Source: an uncultured candidatus Porisulfidus sp.
GTDB taxonomy: Bacteria > Pseudomonadota > Gammaproteobacteria > Poriferisulfidales > Oxydemutatoraceae
Assembly (NCBI GenBank): GCA_965215125.1
Contig: OZ244052.1
Coordinates: 1,248,001 to 1,312,000, forward strand
Direction of reading: 5' to 3'
DNA length: 64,000 bases
Below the pieces are notes generated by a model, which worked only from the letters and a program-made list of their open reading frames with translations, ran no database searches and was not told the origin of the DNA. The position numbers and the translations under genes are program-made. Shown in pieces: positions 13,564 through 33,102 of the stretch. Each line of letters opens with the position of its first letter. Position 1 is the first letter of the stretch.

Positions 13564-13636
<73 letters not shown>

Positions 13637-13647
13637 CCGGTTCAAGC

Positions 13648-13723
13648 GCGCCCGTAGCTCAGTGGATAGAGCGCTGCCCTCCGGAGGCAGAAGTCGCAGG
13701 TTCGAATCCTGCCGGGCGCGCCA
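13648..13723 (+). tRNA. tRNA-Arg(CCG)
   Basis: GCGCCCG acceptor stem, CTCCGGA anticodon loop, GTTCGAATC, terminal CCA. Confidence 0.96.
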
Positions 13724-30627: not shown

Positions 30628-30911
30628 CTTTTTGCAGTTGCCAAACCGGATATCGCTTTTTTGACCGAATAGATTAAAAAGATTGCAATCATGACCAGCA
30701 ATGCCCCGGTGAAAAAGCTAAGTGCGTATAAAGAGATGACGCCACCGATAGCGGCTAATAATATAACTGTGTTTATGGTGCCCAATAGTCCTTGGACGAA
30801 GTTTCTTTGCATTTTATCTATTAGATTATTAAAAAATAGAAATACGAACCACATAATTATTATCAGCACACTACATACTAAAAAATAAAACAAATGCATT
30901 AAAAAATCCAT
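30624..30911 (-). CDS. Small hypothetical membrane protein
   Basis: Three hydrophobic segments; AGGAG RBS upstream. Confidence 0.55.
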   Translation of the reverse strand: MDFLMHLFYFLVCSVLIIIMWFVFLFFNNLIDKMQRNFVQGLLGTINTVILLAAIGGVISLYALSFFTGALLVMIAIFLIYSVKKAISGLATAKS

Positions 30912-30981
30912 AATCGATCTCCTTGAGTTAAACGGTATTTTCGATGTTCCATAATATCATAATTAGTATCGTTCACTCATT

Positions 30982-31100
30982 GGGAATTATATAGATAACT
31001 TGACAGATTTATTAGACCGCCTTGCTACCCTATCTTTTTGACGCTTCACAGACCAGCCAACGCTGCAATCTCCACGCCCGGTTGCGGTATTCCCGACCGC
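30982..31100 (-). ncRNA. Predicted omega-RNA scaffold overlapping the tnpB 3' end (copy 1)
   Basis: Hairpin GCGGU/ACCGC with loop CGGGAAU; hairpin CAGC/GCUG; block UGAAGCGUCAAAAAGAUAGGGU shared with copy 2. Confidence 0.55.
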
Positions 31101-32195
31101 CAAAATGTTTAATGCAGCATTGACATCTGCATTGTCCTCGTGTCCGCAGTGCCGACACTTGAATATCGCTTGTGTTTTGCGGTTCGCTTTATCTACGCTT
31201 CTGCACTTGTTGCAGGTTTGACTTGTATATGCTGGATTGACCTTTCCTACATATGCTTTGTAGCTTAAGCATTGCTCCAGTTTATACCAGCCACTCTTTA
31301 GTATCTCTCTGTTCAAACCTGACTTCGCTCCCACATTCTTGCCCGGGCTGTCTATCGTCCCCTTCGCCGACTTCGTCATGCCTGCTGTATTCAGTCCTTC
31401 CATATAGACGATGTCGTATTTGTCCGCTATTAGCTTGCTGGTTTTATGACACCAATTCGCCCTCGTAAATCGCTCCGCTTGATACGCTTTCTGTAATTTA
31501 TACTTCGCTAGCTTACGCCTGTTGCTTCCCTTAACCCGTCTAACAACCATTCGCTGATAACGCTTGCGTCTTGCTTCCTTACGCTGTAAGTCGGGTAGGT
31601 AATACATGGTCCCGTCCGACAATGCTATCTGTCCCACATTCCTATCCAAACCCACTTCCTTTAGCATCTGCGATTTGTCCGCTAGCTCCACTTCATAGCA
31701 AATATATGCATACCAATTACCACATTCATACTTGACTTGACCCGATACAAACTTCTCACCTTTATACCTATCACCACCGGCAAACTTCATCCAGCCTACC
31801 TTCTGTATATACAAGTGACAACCCGATAGTTTTGCCGATTGATAATTGATTGGGAATGACGGGCTATGCGTATATTTGCCGTGAAACTTCGGCAATCCGT
31901 TGTTGCTCTTGAAAAATCCTTTGTATGCTATCTCTATCGGTTGTAATGATGATTTCACGATATAAGCGGAATAACCTTGCAACCACTTGTCGCAATGCTT
32001 TCGCAATGTCGTAAATTGCTTGCCTAGGGTGAAAAAGCTAAACCGGCTCTCGCCATAATACTCGTATTCATCCTTTAACTCAGCTACAAAGTGATTCCAA
32101 ACATAACGACACGCTCCGGCAGTTCCGTGTAATTGCCGATGCTTTTCATAGGTCGCTGGATACAAGCGATATCTGATTGTTCTATGAGTTTTCAT
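30987..32195 (-). CDS. tnpB: RNA-guided endonuclease TnpB
   Basis: N-terminal YRLYP...GACRYVWN; RuvC-I GLDRN, RuvC-II YMEGL, zinc finger CNKC/CRHC, RuvC-III NADVNAA. Confidence 0.93.
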   Translation of the reverse strand: MKTHRTIRYRLYPATYEKHRQLHGTAGACRYVWNHFVAELKDEYEYYGESRFSFFTLGKQFTTLRKHCDKWLQGYSAYIVKSSLQPIEIAYKGFFKSNNGLPKFHGKYTHSPSFPINYQSAKLSGCHLYIQKVGWMKFAGGDRYKGEKFVSGQVKYECGNWYAYICYEVELADKSQMLKEVGLDRNVGQIALSDGTMYYLPDLQRKEARRKRYQRMVVRRVKGSNRRKLAKYKLQKAYQAERFTRANWCHKTSKLIADKYDIVYMEGLNTAGMTKSAKGTIDSPGKNVGAKSGLNREILKSGWYKLEQCLSYKAYVGKVNPAYTSQTCNKCRSVDKANRKTQAIFKCRHCGHEDNADVNAALNILAVGNTATGRGDCSVGWSVKRQKDRVARRSNKSVKLSI

Positions 32196-32308
32196 CGATG
32201 TAATTTAACATTTCTTTGTCAAGTTATCTATATAATTCCCCACTCATTTATCCGAGAATTATATACTTTAAGTATGTAAATCATGTTTTACCGATTTCCA
32301 CTTTGTTT

Positions 32309-33102
32309 TTAGTTCCTTTTAAGCCACTTACATGCTAATCCATAAGTTGTAACTTGAGGCTCAACATTCTTCTTAGGGTGGATATTAGATTTTAGTATCT
32401 CAAATACAGGTTCGCTATCTAACCTAAACTTGATTTGTTTATAATGGCTTTTGCTATCATGTCTATCCTCAATCTGCCCTATTTGCTTATTATGCAATAA
32501 TGAAAAAAACACTACTTTTTGATCATCCATTTGTTTACTGTGCCTGGCTTTAGAATTGCGGAGCGAGACATTAGTGCATAAAGTGTCAACTACTTTATTC
32601 TTGTGGAATACATGAAAATGTTTTTTCTCTTTCAAGTCTTTTGCGAGACCAGGATATATACTAAGATAATCGGCATTCCCACCATCAAATAATGCCTTAG
32701 CAAGTAATGATGCTAACATTTTTGGTTTGTTTAACTCTTCTAAGAGTCTTCTCATGTGTGGCTGAAGTCGTAGCTTTGCAGCTGTTTTATTAGAAAGATA
32801 TTCATCATAAGTTGTTGGGTATGCATCAAGACAATCAATCATTATGTTTGCAATGTTCCCTAATCCTTGAAAGATAGTGTTAGTTTTAAGGCGATTTTAC
32901 TGTATAAGAAAATCTGCCACCGCTCCCCAGCTTTTACTGAGTGATACCTGTCTTGTTCATCCGCAACATCTTTTTTGTCTGTATGATGCCCTCTTTGTAC
33001 ATGACCACCAATTAGTTCAGCAAAATGCTCTTCATTTGCATGCCCAGCTCTTTTTACCATGCTTGCGTGTTCGCTGGTCATAGCTCTTCGTTTGGGCATC
33101 AT
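32309..33102 (-). pseudogene. Putative type II restriction endonuclease, split by a frameshift
   Basis: Overlaps the MTase stop; adding one A at the 32895-32898 run joins the 80-aa and 177-aa ORFs (YSKNRLKTNTIFQGLGNIANIMIDC); D..D...SVK PD-(D/E)xK-like motif. Confidence 0.65.

What the first reader, a model, noticed from the sequence alone, without database searches (positions are those of the whole stretch)
30962..31100. Predicted omega-RNA pseudoknots with the TIR terminus, so the guide would be flanking host DNA
Seen: about 110 nt before the element end, the tnpB transcript has a hairpin (GCGGU/ACCGC) whose loop GGGAAU is complementary to the last 6 nt of the TIR (AUUCCC). Copy 2 keeps the pairing as GGGAGU (one G-U). 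The next hairpin differs in sequence but still pairs in both copies (CAGC/GCUG versus CGAC..GUG-GCAA-CAC..GUCG), followed by a shared 22-nt block. Known: TnpB omega-RNAs overlap the ORF 3' end and form a pseudoknot next to the guide. Inference: the scaffold ends exactly at the TIR tip, so TnpB is co-adapted to these ends and is not passive cargo. Predicted guides: AAUGAGUGAACGAUACUAAU (copy 1) and AUUAGCUAAGAAUACGGAUG (copy 2).
Basis: partly seen in the sequence, partly recalled or inferred. Interest (0 to 1): 0.88.

Follow-up and report, generated by a model that had tools for sequence, protein, structure and literature searches.

The report
TnpB guide RNA using IS1595 ends
A 1.26-kb mobile element carries an RNA-guided nuclease gene whose guide-RNA scaffold appears to be folded partly from the element's own inverted-repeat end, so the nuclease looks tailored to a cut-and-paste type of transposon end.

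Summary
On the minus strand, hairpin GCGGU/ACCGC (31100-31084) has loop GGGAAU (31094-31089), complementary to the last 6 nt of the element, AUUCCC (30987-30982). Copy 2 has GGGAGU.

The element (30982-32240) holds only tnpB. It has 24-bp perfect inverted repeats and an 8-bp target duplication. IS1595-family insertion sequences in this and related genomes carry the same or very similar inverted repeats and nothing else in common. So this is a non-autonomous IS1595-type element, not an IS605-type one.

Across 46 related elements, the last ~120 nt fold like the solved ISDra2 TnpB guide RNA:
- 90.7% of cells are paired, against 36-48% in slid controls.
- Stems covary.
- The last stem is made from the inverted repeat and follows 14 different repeat types.
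- Synonymous sites freeze over the last ~40 codons.

The loop-tip pairing holds at 6 of 6 positions in 50 of 57 elements. Only the core GGGA/UCCC is kept in a distant clade, and real covariation is weak.

An unexpected extra: the base just 5' of the duplicated target is a purine in 30 of 30 tnpB elements, against 7 of 12 autonomous IS1595 copies. This is a new variant of a known kind.

The parts
30962..30981 (-). Predicted guide: flanking DNA just 3' of the element. Its first 8 nt (30981-30974, AATGAGTG) are the right copy of the target-site duplication.
   Evidence: Sequence. This stretch is not conserved between copies. That it serves as the guide is inferred from the ISDra2 architecture (PMC10097598).
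30982..31005 (-). Right-end terminal inverted repeat, TGTCAAGTTATCTATATAATTCCC, read as the last 24 nt of the RNA scaffold.
   Evidence: Perfect 24-bp inverted repeat with 32217-32240. In other runs, contigs from other copies diverge exactly at 30980/30981 and at 32240.
30982..30987 (-). 3' strand of the proposed pseudoknot (AUUCCC, -6..-1).
31089..31094 (-). 5' strand of the proposed pseudoknot (GGGAAU, -113..-108), in the loop of stem 1. It is codons Gly368-Asn369 of tnpB.
   Evidence: GGG in 36 of 36 ORFs and AAT in 32 of 32 Asn codons.
31084..31100 (-). Stem 1: GCGGU (31100-31096) with ACCGC (31088-31084).
   Evidence: 94.8% of cells paired. Two pairs change on both sides (CG 29/GC 14/GU 2; UG 30/GC 15/UA 1).
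31040..31078 (-). Long-range stem GGCGU (31078-31074) with GCGUC (31044-31040). It encloses the covarying hairpin AGA..CAGC (31071-31069, 31065-31062) with GCUG..UCU (31057-31054, 31052-31050).
   Evidence: 99.6%, 96.4% and 100% of cells paired. Inner-stem pair types include GC 31/AU 11/CG 4 and AU 33/GC 12/GU 1.
30991..31033 (-). Last stem ('stem 4'). AUAGG (31033-31029) and GGCGG (31021-31017) pair with CUGUC (31006-31002) and UCUAU (30995-30991). The 3' arm is the inner part of the inverted repeat.
   Evidence: 46 of 46 elements fold to one hairpin here. 9-15 of the 18 inverted-repeat nucleotides -24..-7 are paired, across 14 repeat types. The left end is much weaker.
31111..31133 (-). Upstream hairpin AAUGCAG/CUGCAUU inside the RuvC-III codons. 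Whether it belongs to the mature RNA is open.
   Evidence: 95.9% of cells paired. Synonymous compensatory changes: GC 28, GU 9, AU 6, CG 1.
30987..32195 (-). tnpB ORF, 402 aa. Its stop codon TAA (30989-30987) lies inside the inverted repeat, 5 nt from the tip.
   Evidence: Pfam HTH_OrfB_IS605, OrfB_IS605 and Cas12f1-like_TNB. NCBIfam NF040570 scores 197 bits against a cut-off of 100. ISDra2 TnpB 8bf8 matches at E 7e-25 over residues 6-376.
32217..32240 (-). Left-end terminal inverted repeat, GGGAATTATATAGATAACTTGACA.
32241..32248 (-). Left copy of the 8-bp target-site duplication, AATGAGTG. It is preceded by A (32249), the purine position.
43209..44477 (-). Copy 2 of the element (1269 bp). Loop GGGAGU at 43331-43326, tip at 43214-43209, target duplication ATTAGCGA/ATTAGCTA (7 of 8).

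Best explanation
Window 30982-32240 (minus strand) is a non-autonomous IS1595-type element. It has only the 24-bp inverted repeats of that DDE-transposon family and makes 8-bp target duplications. Its sole gene is an intact TnpB RNA-guided nuclease.

The last ~120 nt of the tnpB transcript (31100-30982) are the TnpB guide-RNA (omega-RNA) scaffold. They overlap the last ~38 codons and the whole right inverted repeat. The fold follows the ISDra2 plan:
- stem 1, with the pseudoknot strand in its loop;
- a long-range stem enclosing a variable hairpin;
- a last stem in which the inner inverted repeat pairs with a complement placed just upstream;
- the tip of the inverted repeat (UCCC, usually AUUCCC) pairing back to the stem-1 loop (GGGA, usually GGGAAU).

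The guide would then be the ~16-20 nt of host DNA that follow the tip, beginning with the 8-bp target duplication. The complex would recognise the empty site: left flank, one copy of the 8-mer, right flank. It would spare the occupied site, where CCC precedes the target.

Shown here: the element's anatomy, the conserved covarying fold, its dependence on the inverted repeat, and selection on tnpB.

Inferred: the pseudoknot as such, the RNA ends, the guide, any cleavage, and mobilisation in trans by an IS1595 transposase.
For: Anatomy
- 24-bp perfect inverted repeats and AATGAGTG on both sides.
- Five full-length copies plus deletion derivatives in the 2.22-Mb genome.
- Of 45 elements examined, the target duplication is 8 of 8 in 17 and at least 7 of 8 in 27. 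After adding 6 more, 30 of 51 reach at least 7 of 8.
- Three elements in related genomes have empty orthologous sites in this genome, where the two flanks overlap by exactly 8 bp.

IS1595 link
- The genome has two 1294-bp insertion sequences with DDE_Tnp_IS1595 (E 4.5e-39). Their inverted repeats match this element's at 19 of 24 positions.
- Autonomous IS1595 copies in related genomes have repeats identical to the tnpB elements': 26 of 26 with copy 2's left end, and the G1 repeat on one end of L142.
- They share only those ~24-26 bp with the tnpB elements.
- The transposase family is present in 5 of 5 genomes that hold the tnpB elements.

RNA fold, 46 elements
- 90.7% of 1714 cells are paired, against 36-48% when partners are slid.
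- Covariation score 0.259 against 0.05-0.07 slid. None of 500 shuffles reach it.
- 17 pairs change on both sides.
- G-U 172 cells against A.C 16 cells, so the sense strand is the folded one.

Last stem
- Present in 46 of 46 elements, across 14 inverted-repeat types.
- The autonomous IS1595 right ends read (L079, L073) have a direct subterminal repeat, not an inverted one.
- The left ends fold weakly: mean -6.3 against -17.9 kcal/mol.

Synonymous sites
- Codon difference between ORF pairs under 75% identical is 0.42-0.72 in the 10-codon bins up to codon 360.
- It falls to 0.36, 0.26 and 0.09 in codons 361-390.

Pseudoknot
- 6 of 6 pairs in 50 of 57 elements. The core GGGA/UCCC is kept in 55 of 57.
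- The position matches ISDra2, where -6..-2 pair with -102..-106.

tnpB
- D184, E266 and D357 and four Cys are invariant in 8 aligned proteins.
- dN/dS is 0.03-0.26.

Orientation-specific flank
- The base 5' of the target duplication is a purine in 30 of 30 tnpB elements, against 7 of 12 autonomous IS1595 copies (Fisher p 0.0009).
- The mirror position is a pyrimidine in only 16 of 30.
Against: - The loop and tip columns hardly vary. For the pseudoknot alone, shuffles give 98.3% paired against 99.3% observed, and only 2 cells change on both sides.
- The tip is also constrained by transposition, so its invariance proves nothing about RNA.
- In the L043 clade (10 elements read) positions 5-6 are often unpaired: 6 of 6 pairs in 2 elements, 5 of 6 in 3, 4 of 6 in 5. 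The one 'compensatory' case (L043) may therefore be coincidence.
- Two elements have GAGAAU, an A.C at pair 2 (L040, a broken gene, and L116).
- A competing local helix UCGG/CCGG, which would bury two G of the loop, is kept by one-sided changes and cannot be excluded.
- The TAM-like signal is only 1-3 nt. Characterised TnpBs read 4-5 nt, such as TTGAT.
- A cut-and-paste DDE element already leaves a break at the donor site, so the benefit of a homing nuclease is less obvious (PMC13565253, passages).
- No sigma-70-like promoter was found in 30900-32320.
- No RNA ends or cleavage were measured.
Confidence: 0.72

Rival explanations
1. The guide-RNA scaffold is real, but there is no pseudoknot with the tip. 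GGGA(AU) in the stem-1 loop is kept for another reason, such as a protein contact or the alternative helix UCGG/CCGG. Its complementarity to the tip of the inverted repeat is incidental.
For: - The pseudoknot columns are nearly invariant, so covariation is weak.
- Pairs 5-6 are lost in 8 of 10 elements of the L043 clade.
- The alternative inner helix is paired in nearly all 46 rows.
Against: - The core GGGA/UCCC is kept in 55 of 57 elements.
- Synonymous sites of the loop codons are frozen: GGG 36 of 36, AAT 32 of 32.
- Most changes seen keep pairing through G-U: 18 G-U cells against 2 unpaired of 276.
- The position matches the ISDra2 pseudoknot. It also matches the IS607 one, which was tested by compensatory mutation (PMC10711439, passages).
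- The alternative hairpin as a whole has two pairs broken, in 30 and in 20 of 46 rows, and no double changes beyond 2 cells.
Confidence: 0.15
2. The conserved right-end hairpin and blocks are DNA signals for the IS1595 transposase (subterminal binding sites), not an RNA.
For: The hairpin's 3' arm is the inverted repeat itself, which the transposase must bind. Some left ends also fold, with up to 13 paired repeat nucleotides.
Against: - Autonomous IS1595 copies with the same inverted repeats share only ~24-26 bp with the tnpB elements. The two right ends read have a direct, not inverted, subterminal repeat.
- G-U 172 cells against A.C 16 cells shows that one strand, the tnpB sense strand, is the constrained one.
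- The constraint extends ~120 nt into the coding region and freezes synonymous sites.
Confidence: 0.05
3. The scaffold ends at the internal GCGUCAA (31044-31038), like an IS605-type right end. The next ~16 nt would be a fixed guide aimed at the element's own inverted repeats.
For: - The block GAAGCGTCAA is almost invariant.
- Related ordinary tnpB elements (L055-L057, about 42% identical) have TGTCAA close to the point where the three copies diverge.
- The sequence after the block resembles the left inverted repeat.
Against: - The best ungapped match of any 16-mer upstream of the right repeat to a would-be repeat protospacer is 7-11 of 16 (median 9). The longest exact run is 3-7.
- The complementarity needs bulges, internal loops and G-U pairs, as a hairpin tolerates and a guide does not.
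- This reading leaves no last stem and no 3' pseudoknot strand, both present in ISDra2.
- GCGUC is already explained as the 3' arm of the long-range stem, 99.6% paired.
Confidence: 0.03
4. tnpB is passive or decaying cargo, and the structures are relics of an IS605-type ancestor.
For: Some copies are broken: L040 has an 83-aa ORF, L043 is frameshifted and L053 has 359 aa. Deletion derivatives without tnpB exist.
Against: - 37 of 39 ORFs are at least 360 aa.
- dN/dS is 0.03-0.26.
- The catalytic D, E, D and the zinc-finger Cys are invariant.
- The last stem has been re-fitted to 14 different inverted-repeat types. That requires continued selection after capture.
Confidence: 0.03

Closest known systems
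ISDra2 TnpB with its omega-RNA (IS200/IS605 family; cryo-EM structure, PMC10097598, passages read)
   Same: - The protein aligns over its whole length (8bf8, E 7e-25, residues 6-376).
- The RNA overlaps the 3' end of the ORF.
- The order of parts is the same: stem 1 with the pseudoknot strand in its loop, a long-range stem enclosing a hairpin, a last stem, then the few nucleotides before the guide pairing back ~100 nt upstream.
   Different: - ISDra2 has no inverted repeats and no target duplication. It moves as single-stranded DNA by a Y1 transposase and inserts after TTGAT, which is also its TAM.
- Here the ends are 24-bp inverted repeats with 8-bp duplications of variable sequence.
- Here the last stem and the pseudoknot strand are made of the inverted repeat.
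- No 4-5-nt motif precedes the target, only a purine.
Fanzor2* and Fanzor1 guide RNAs in eukaryotic cut-and-paste transposons, and the IS607 ISXfa1 TnpB (PMC10711439, passages read)
   Same: A TnpB-family nuclease sits in elements with inverted repeats and target duplications. The repeats are predicted to be part of the RNA scaffold. A pseudoknot between the nucleotides flanking the guide and a stem-loop apex is proposed as conserved, and was proven by compensatory mutation for ISXfa1.
   Different: - Those are eukaryotic or viral hosts, or IS607.
- Their fixed target duplications or flanking nucleotide are absorbed into the scaffold. Here the 8-bp duplication varies from copy to copy, so it should be part of the guide.
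- Fanzor1 RNAs lack the pseudoknot.
DDE-transposase-associated TnpB branches DDE-1 to DDE-6 (PMC10691335, passages read; summarised in PMC13565253 as ISL2, IS630, IS1031)
   Same: Prokaryotic TnpBs bounded by inverted terminal repeats. Solo tnpB genes are flanked by ends nearly identical to those of transposase-bearing elements. The 3' end of tnpB lies within 250 bp of the element end.
   Different: - IS1595 is not named in the main text of either paper (0 occurrences; list). Their supplements and figures could not be seen and may hold it.
- The passages read give no RNA model that ties the scaffold to the inverted repeat.
IS1595-family insertion sequences (Pfam DDE_Tnp_IS1595)
   Same: Same ~24-bp inverted repeats starting GGGAAYTAT and 8-bp target duplications: 12 of the 15 autonomous copies listed have 8 of 8.
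   Different: No transposase gene inside the element, which holds tnpB plus a guide-RNA module instead. The right end has an inverted complement of the repeat, not a direct one. The insertion flank shows an orientation-specific purine.

Membership tests
TnpB RNA-guided endonuclease (NCBIfam NF040570; Pfam OrfB_IS605 + Cas12f1-like_TNB) | Profile match above the curated cut-off over the whole protein | tested here: met
   NF040570 scores 197.2 bits against a cut-off of 100, residues 8-366. Three Pfam domains are above their cut-offs.
TnpB RNA-guided endonuclease (NCBIfam NF040570; Pfam OrfB_IS605 + Cas12f1-like_TNB) | RuvC D-E-D residues and a CxxC...CxxC zinc finger | tested here: met
   D184, E266, D357 and C328, C331, C347, C350 are invariant in 8 aligned proteins. 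They align with the corresponding motifs of an ISDra2-like chain. Assigning them as catalytic rests on that alignment and on recalled knowledge of ISDra2.
TnpB RNA-guided endonuclease (NCBIfam NF040570; Pfam OrfB_IS605 + Cas12f1-like_TNB) | Structured RNA from the 3' end of the gene that reaches the element end | tested here: met
   Conserved covarying fold from -119 to -1. Synonymous sites are frozen over the last ~40 codons. Expression of the RNA was not tested.
TnpB RNA-guided endonuclease (NCBIfam NF040570; Pfam OrfB_IS605 + Cas12f1-like_TNB) | Guide-dependent DNA cleavage next to a TAM | not testable with these tools
   Needs expression and an interference assay.
ISDra2-type omega-RNA architecture | Pseudoknot between the nucleotides just 5' of the guide and the loop of the 5'-most stem | tested here: inconclusive
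   Complementarity is 6 of 6 in 50 of 57 elements and the core is kept in 55 of 57. The columns are nearly invariant, though: shuffles give 98.3% against 99.3% observed. A distant clade keeps only 4 pairs.
IS200/IS605 family (IS1341 group, tnpB only) | No terminal inverted repeats and no target duplication; asymmetric ends with subterminal hairpins | tested here: not met
   24-bp perfect inverted repeats and 8-bp duplications. Empty sites hold one copy of the 8-mer. The family definition is taken from PMC13565253.
IS1595 family | Inverted repeats of the family and an 8-bp target duplication | tested here: met
   The repeats are identical or nearly so to those of elements that encode DDE_Tnp_IS1595. 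The 8-bp duplication is seen in both kinds of element.
IS1595 family | Encodes a DDE_Tnp_IS1595 transposase | tested here: not met
   The only long ORF is tnpB. The transposase is found elsewhere in the genome. At most this is a non-autonomous derivative.
Any Rfam family | Covariance-model match | tested here: not met
   Only two tRNAs reach gathering score in the window. In 30900-31400 at E up to 10 there are only two chance-level snoRNA hits.

The most novel reading that the evidence does not exclude
This TnpB lineage has been re-engineered by evolution to serve a DDE cut-and-paste transposon that inserts at almost any sequence. Its guide RNA is anchored on the inverted repeat and is re-fitted each time the element adopts a new IS1595 partner's repeat. 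Its guide starts with the variable target duplication. Its TAM has shrunk to about one purine, with the CCC tip of the element acting as the 'self' mark that protects occupied sites. If so, this is a near-TAM-less miniature RNA-guided nuclease. The tnpB-less deletion derivatives that keep the RNA module would be guide-RNA carriers served in trans.
Probability: 0.3. Interest if true: 0.8.

Novelty: new variant of a known kind. Interest (0 to 1): 0.62.

Why it matters
TnpB guide RNAs with a pseudoknot are well known. TnpBs beside DDE transposases have been listed in surveys. A 2023 paper still asked why TnpBs are tied only to IS200/605 and IS607 (PMC10711439). A 2026 review calls DDE associations rare and offers inflexible target recognition as one possible reason (PMC13565253).

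This family gives a worked prokaryotic example of how the RNA adapts to a DDE transposon:
- The transposase-bound inverted repeat is recoded as the last stem and the pseudoknot strand.
- The upstream complement has followed 14 repeat types.

It also gives a testable lead on a very short TAM, which matters for compact genome-editing nucleases. It offers a natural system of matched autonomous and non-autonomous elements for asking what a homing nuclease gains a cut-and-paste element.

Tried and rejected
- RNA evidence. The look-up of sequencing runs listed no RNA holder. The three RNA rows held next to none of the words. So the RNA ends could not be looked at.
- Read laying on four DNA runs. Only short contigs were laid, and no contig joined across the element at this locus. 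It gave no empty site here. It did show other copies' flanks starting exactly at the tips, and one internal-deletion joint (31110 to 31937).
- Rfam: no family.
- Minimum-free-energy folding of single copies. It gave a different local hairpin around the loop. Tested on the alignment, that hairpin is not supported as a whole, though its inner 4 pairs cannot be excluded.
- An all-against-all column scan was too permissive and was not used.
- The last stem could not be counted on alignment A2, because the subfamilies are misaligned there (helices 7-8: 74.6% and 48.4% paired). It was judged sequence by sequence instead.
- L043 looked like a compensatory change in the pseudoknot. Its relatives show that this position is not kept, so it is not counted as covariation.
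- Metagenome loci L055-L057 (about 42% identical) are ordinary elements without these ends. They were left out of all counts.
- L014 was left out of the counts as the orthologue of the window copy. L025 (no left end), L038 (no right tip) and L045 (fragment) were left out of the flank counts.
- Promoter scan: none found.
No earlier findings were seen.
- Literature. Searches. 'TnpB' with 'IS1595' gave 9 papers. I saw only the listing. None is about this by title or start of abstract. Supplements are closed, so the SI of PMC10691335 (its Additional Files 10, 11 and Fig. 4) may already hold IS1595-type ends.
It was sent again with that field added.
Full report
**What is at the coordinates.** On the minus strand the window holds a 402-aa ORF (30987-32195). 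It has the three TnpB Pfam domains, matches NCBIfam guided_TnpB at 197 bits (cut-off 100) and aligns end to end with ISDra2 TnpB (8bf8, E 7e-25).

The ORF lies in a 1259-bp element (30982-32240). The element is bounded by perfect 24-bp inverted repeats, GGGAATTATATAGATAACTTGACA, and flanked on both sides by AATGAGTG.

**What kind of element it is.** The 2.22-Mb genome has five full-length copies, an internally deleted 588-bp copy, an interrupted copy and fragments.

Scans of a genome collection and a metagenome collection gave 32 and 16 loci, in uncultured Gammaproteobacteria. The record titles name Candidatus Oxydemutatoraceae, Porisulfidus, Chromatiales, Thiotrichales and Pseudomonadales. 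Protein identity is 36-99%. Nearly all loci are bounded by GGGAATTAT...ATAATTCCC.

The 8-bp duplication:
- Of 45 elements with both ends, it is 8 of 8 in 17 and at least 7 of 8 in 27.
- With six further copies, 30 of 51 reach at least 7 of 8.
- For three elements of related genomes, this genome has the empty site. The two flanks overlap there by exactly 8 bp. The duplication is therefore made at insertion.

IS200/IS605 and IS607 elements have neither inverted repeats nor duplications (PMC13565253, passages). So this is not an IS605-type element.

The same genome has two 1294-bp insertion sequences that encode a DDE_Tnp_IS1595 transposase (E 4.5e-39). Their inverted repeats match at 19 of 24 positions, and one copy has an 8 of 8 duplication. 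In related genomes:
- Autonomous IS1595 copies carry the very repeats of the tnpB elements: 26 of 26 with the left end of copy 2, the window copy's repeat on one end of L142, and 22 of 24 for the Porisulfidus type.
- BLAST finds nothing else shared between the two kinds of element.
- The transposase family occurs in 5 of 5 genomes with tnpB elements, and in 11 of 19 genomes of the taxonomic family.

The tnpB element is therefore best read as a non-autonomous IS1595-type element. Mobilisation in trans is inferred, not shown.

**The RNA.** I aligned the last ~215 nt plus 8 nt of flank of 46 elements and tested a structure written from the window copy.
- 90.7% of 1714 cells form standard pairs, against 36-48% when the 3' partners are slid by 1-3 columns.
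- The covariation score is 0.259, against 0.05-0.07 slid. None of 500 shuffles reach it.
- 17 pairs change on both sides.

The structure was derived from one of the sequences, which favours it in the slid control. The double changes do not depend on that:
- stem 1: CG 29/GC 14/GU 2 and UG 30/GC 15/UA 1;
- the variable hairpin: GC 31/AU 11/CG 4, AU 33/GC 12/GU 1 and CG 43/GC 3;
- its outer part: GC 31/AU 15.

G-U pairs outnumber A.C by 172 cells to 16 in these helices, so the folded strand is the tnpB sense strand.

Between ORF pairs less than 75% identical, codons for the same residue differ in 0.42-0.72 of comparisons in the 10-codon bins up to codon 360. This falls to 0.36, 0.26 and 0.09 in codons 361-370, 371-380 and 381-390. 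The nucleotide-level constraint therefore starts where stem 1 starts.

**The last stem and the inverted repeat.** The alignment fails here between subfamilies, so I folded each sequence alone.
- All 46 give one hairpin between the conserved GCGUCAA block and the tip (z from -0.4 to -7.4).
- With the last 6 nt held unpaired, 9-15 of the 18 inverted-repeat nucleotides -24..-7 pair with a complement lying just upstream. This holds across 14 different inner-repeat sequences.
- The left ends fold far less: median 5.5 paired repeat nucleotides and -6.3 kcal/mol, against 11 and -17.9.
- The two autonomous IS1595 right ends that I read (L079, L073) carry a direct, not inverted, subterminal repeat.

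So the complement is a feature of the tnpB elements, and it has been re-fitted whenever the repeat changed. This is the strongest evidence that the RNA and the ends are co-adapted.

**The pseudoknot.** In ISDra2, nucleotides -5..-3 pair with -103..-105. Non-canonical pairs sit at -6 and -2 (with -102 and -106). This helix stacks coaxially on stem 1 (PMC10097598, passages). Another paper proposes the same interaction as conserved in TnpBs and Fanzor2s, and proved it by a compensatory mutation in an IS607 TnpB (PMC10711439, passages).

Here the loop GGGAAU at -113..-108 faces AUUCCC at -6..-1.
- Over 57 elements, all six pairs form in 50, five in 5 and four in 2.
- Four more relatives of L043, read by eye, keep four or five.
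- The core GGGA/UCCC is kept in 55 of 57.
- The Gly codon is GGG in 36 of 36 ORFs, although GGG is 20% of Gly codons elsewhere. Asn is AAT in 32 of 32.
- The residue after Gly varies (N, S, I, T) while the A stays.

Against this, the two strands hardly vary, so shuffling barely lowers the pairing (98.3% against 99.3%). The tip is also held by transposition. Pairs 5-6 are often lost in the L043 clade. I therefore call the pseudoknot likely, not shown. Its conserved part is four pairs.

**The guide and a TAM-like signal.** If the scaffold ends at the tip, the guide is the flank, and its first 8 nt are the target duplication. The duplication differs from copy to copy. It cannot be scaffold, as it is in Fanzor RNAs.

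In the empty site, the base that would abut the target on its 5' side is a purine in 30 of 30 tnpB elements with a duplication of at least 7 of 8.
- Counts: A 15, G 15. Over all 51 elements it is 47 of 51, and never C.
- The mirror position on the other side is a pyrimidine in only 16 of 30 (p 1.7e-5).
- Autonomous IS1595 copies with 8 of 8 duplications, oriented by their transposase gene, have a purine in 7 of 12 (p 0.0009).

So the bias is tied to the orientation of tnpB, not to the transposase. At the occupied site the same position is the C of the tip. A purine-ending TAM, with CCC marking 'self', would explain both facts. This is inference.

**Rivals.** A fixed guide after the internal GCGUCAA, aimed at the inverted repeats, is rejected. 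No 16-mer upstream of the right repeat matches a would-be repeat protospacer better than 11 of 16 (median 9). That reading also leaves no last stem or pseudoknot strand. DNA-level transposase signals are rejected by the strand asymmetry and by comparison with the autonomous elements. Passive cargo is rejected by dN/dS of 0.03-0.26, by 37 of 39 ORFs being at least 360 aa and by the invariant catalytic residues.

**Comparison with what is known.** The RNA plan is that of known TnpB guide RNAs. Prokaryotic TnpBs next to DDE transposases, with inverted terminal repeats and solo copies sharing those ends, were reported as six branches (PMC10691335, passages). A review lists them as ISL2, IS630 and IS1031. 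IS1595 is not named in the main texts I could search. The supplements are closed and may hold it. My four searches on this point found no paper that, by listing, describes a TnpB RNA built on an IS1595 inverted repeat.

I therefore rate this a new variant of a known kind, with moderate to good interest.

Noticed in passing
Own genome outside the window: G000:C1:285800-287093 and 769526-770819: Two copies of a 1294-bp IS1595-family insertion sequence (328-aa open frame; 308 aa from the first ATG). Their inverted repeats, GGGACTTATAGCGATTAGTTGACA, match the tnpB element's at 19 of 24 positions. One copy has the 8-bp duplication TCATTTTT.
   Followed up: yes
Left flanks of all elements, 9 nt before the left tip (window 32249 for copy 1): The base just 5' of the target duplication is a purine in 30 of 30 tnpB elements with a good duplication, and never C in 51. 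It is a purine in only 7 of 12 autonomous IS1595 copies. The bias is not mirrored on the other side.
   Followed up: yes
G000:C1:1627104-1627691 (L006/L008); G000:C1:965778-967676 (L011/L007/L010); L068 in genome G001: Three deletion derivatives without tnpB keep the right-end RNA module: about 186 nt, 130 nt, and a left repeat fused directly to the last ~150 nt. All retained lengths are just above the scaffold length, as if guide-RNA-only elements were kept.
   Followed up: partly
L055, L056, L057 (metagenome loci): The nearest relatives without these ends (about 42% identical) are ordinary tnpB-only elements. They have no inverted repeats, and TGTCAA lies close to where the three copies diverge. 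They may be the kind of ancestor from which the IS1595-borne lineage came.
   Followed up: partly
L108 and L073/L126 in genome G003 (=G022), C1:184652-188205: A tnpB element lies about 2 kb from an autonomous IS1595 copy. They are separate elements as far as I looked.
   Followed up: no
window 44900-58400: Large repeat families: 1.53-kb units repeated three times (53531-57171) and many 81-90-nt periodic units (49110-52501). They probably belong to very large repeat-rich surface-protein genes.
   Followed up: no
window 32309-32842 and 32860-33102 (minus strand): Two ORFs (177 and 80 aa) next to the left end of the element have no Pfam match.
   Followed up: no
Own genome, 11 places (e.g. C1:298360-298573, 765716-765929): The left flank of locus L019 hits a ~215-nt sequence at about 85-87% identity in 11 places of this genome (two of them shorter, 103-120 nt). 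This is another dispersed repeat, of unknown kind.
   Followed up: no
window 13564-13636 and 13648-13720: Two adjacent tRNA genes. They are the only Rfam matches in the window.
   Followed up: no
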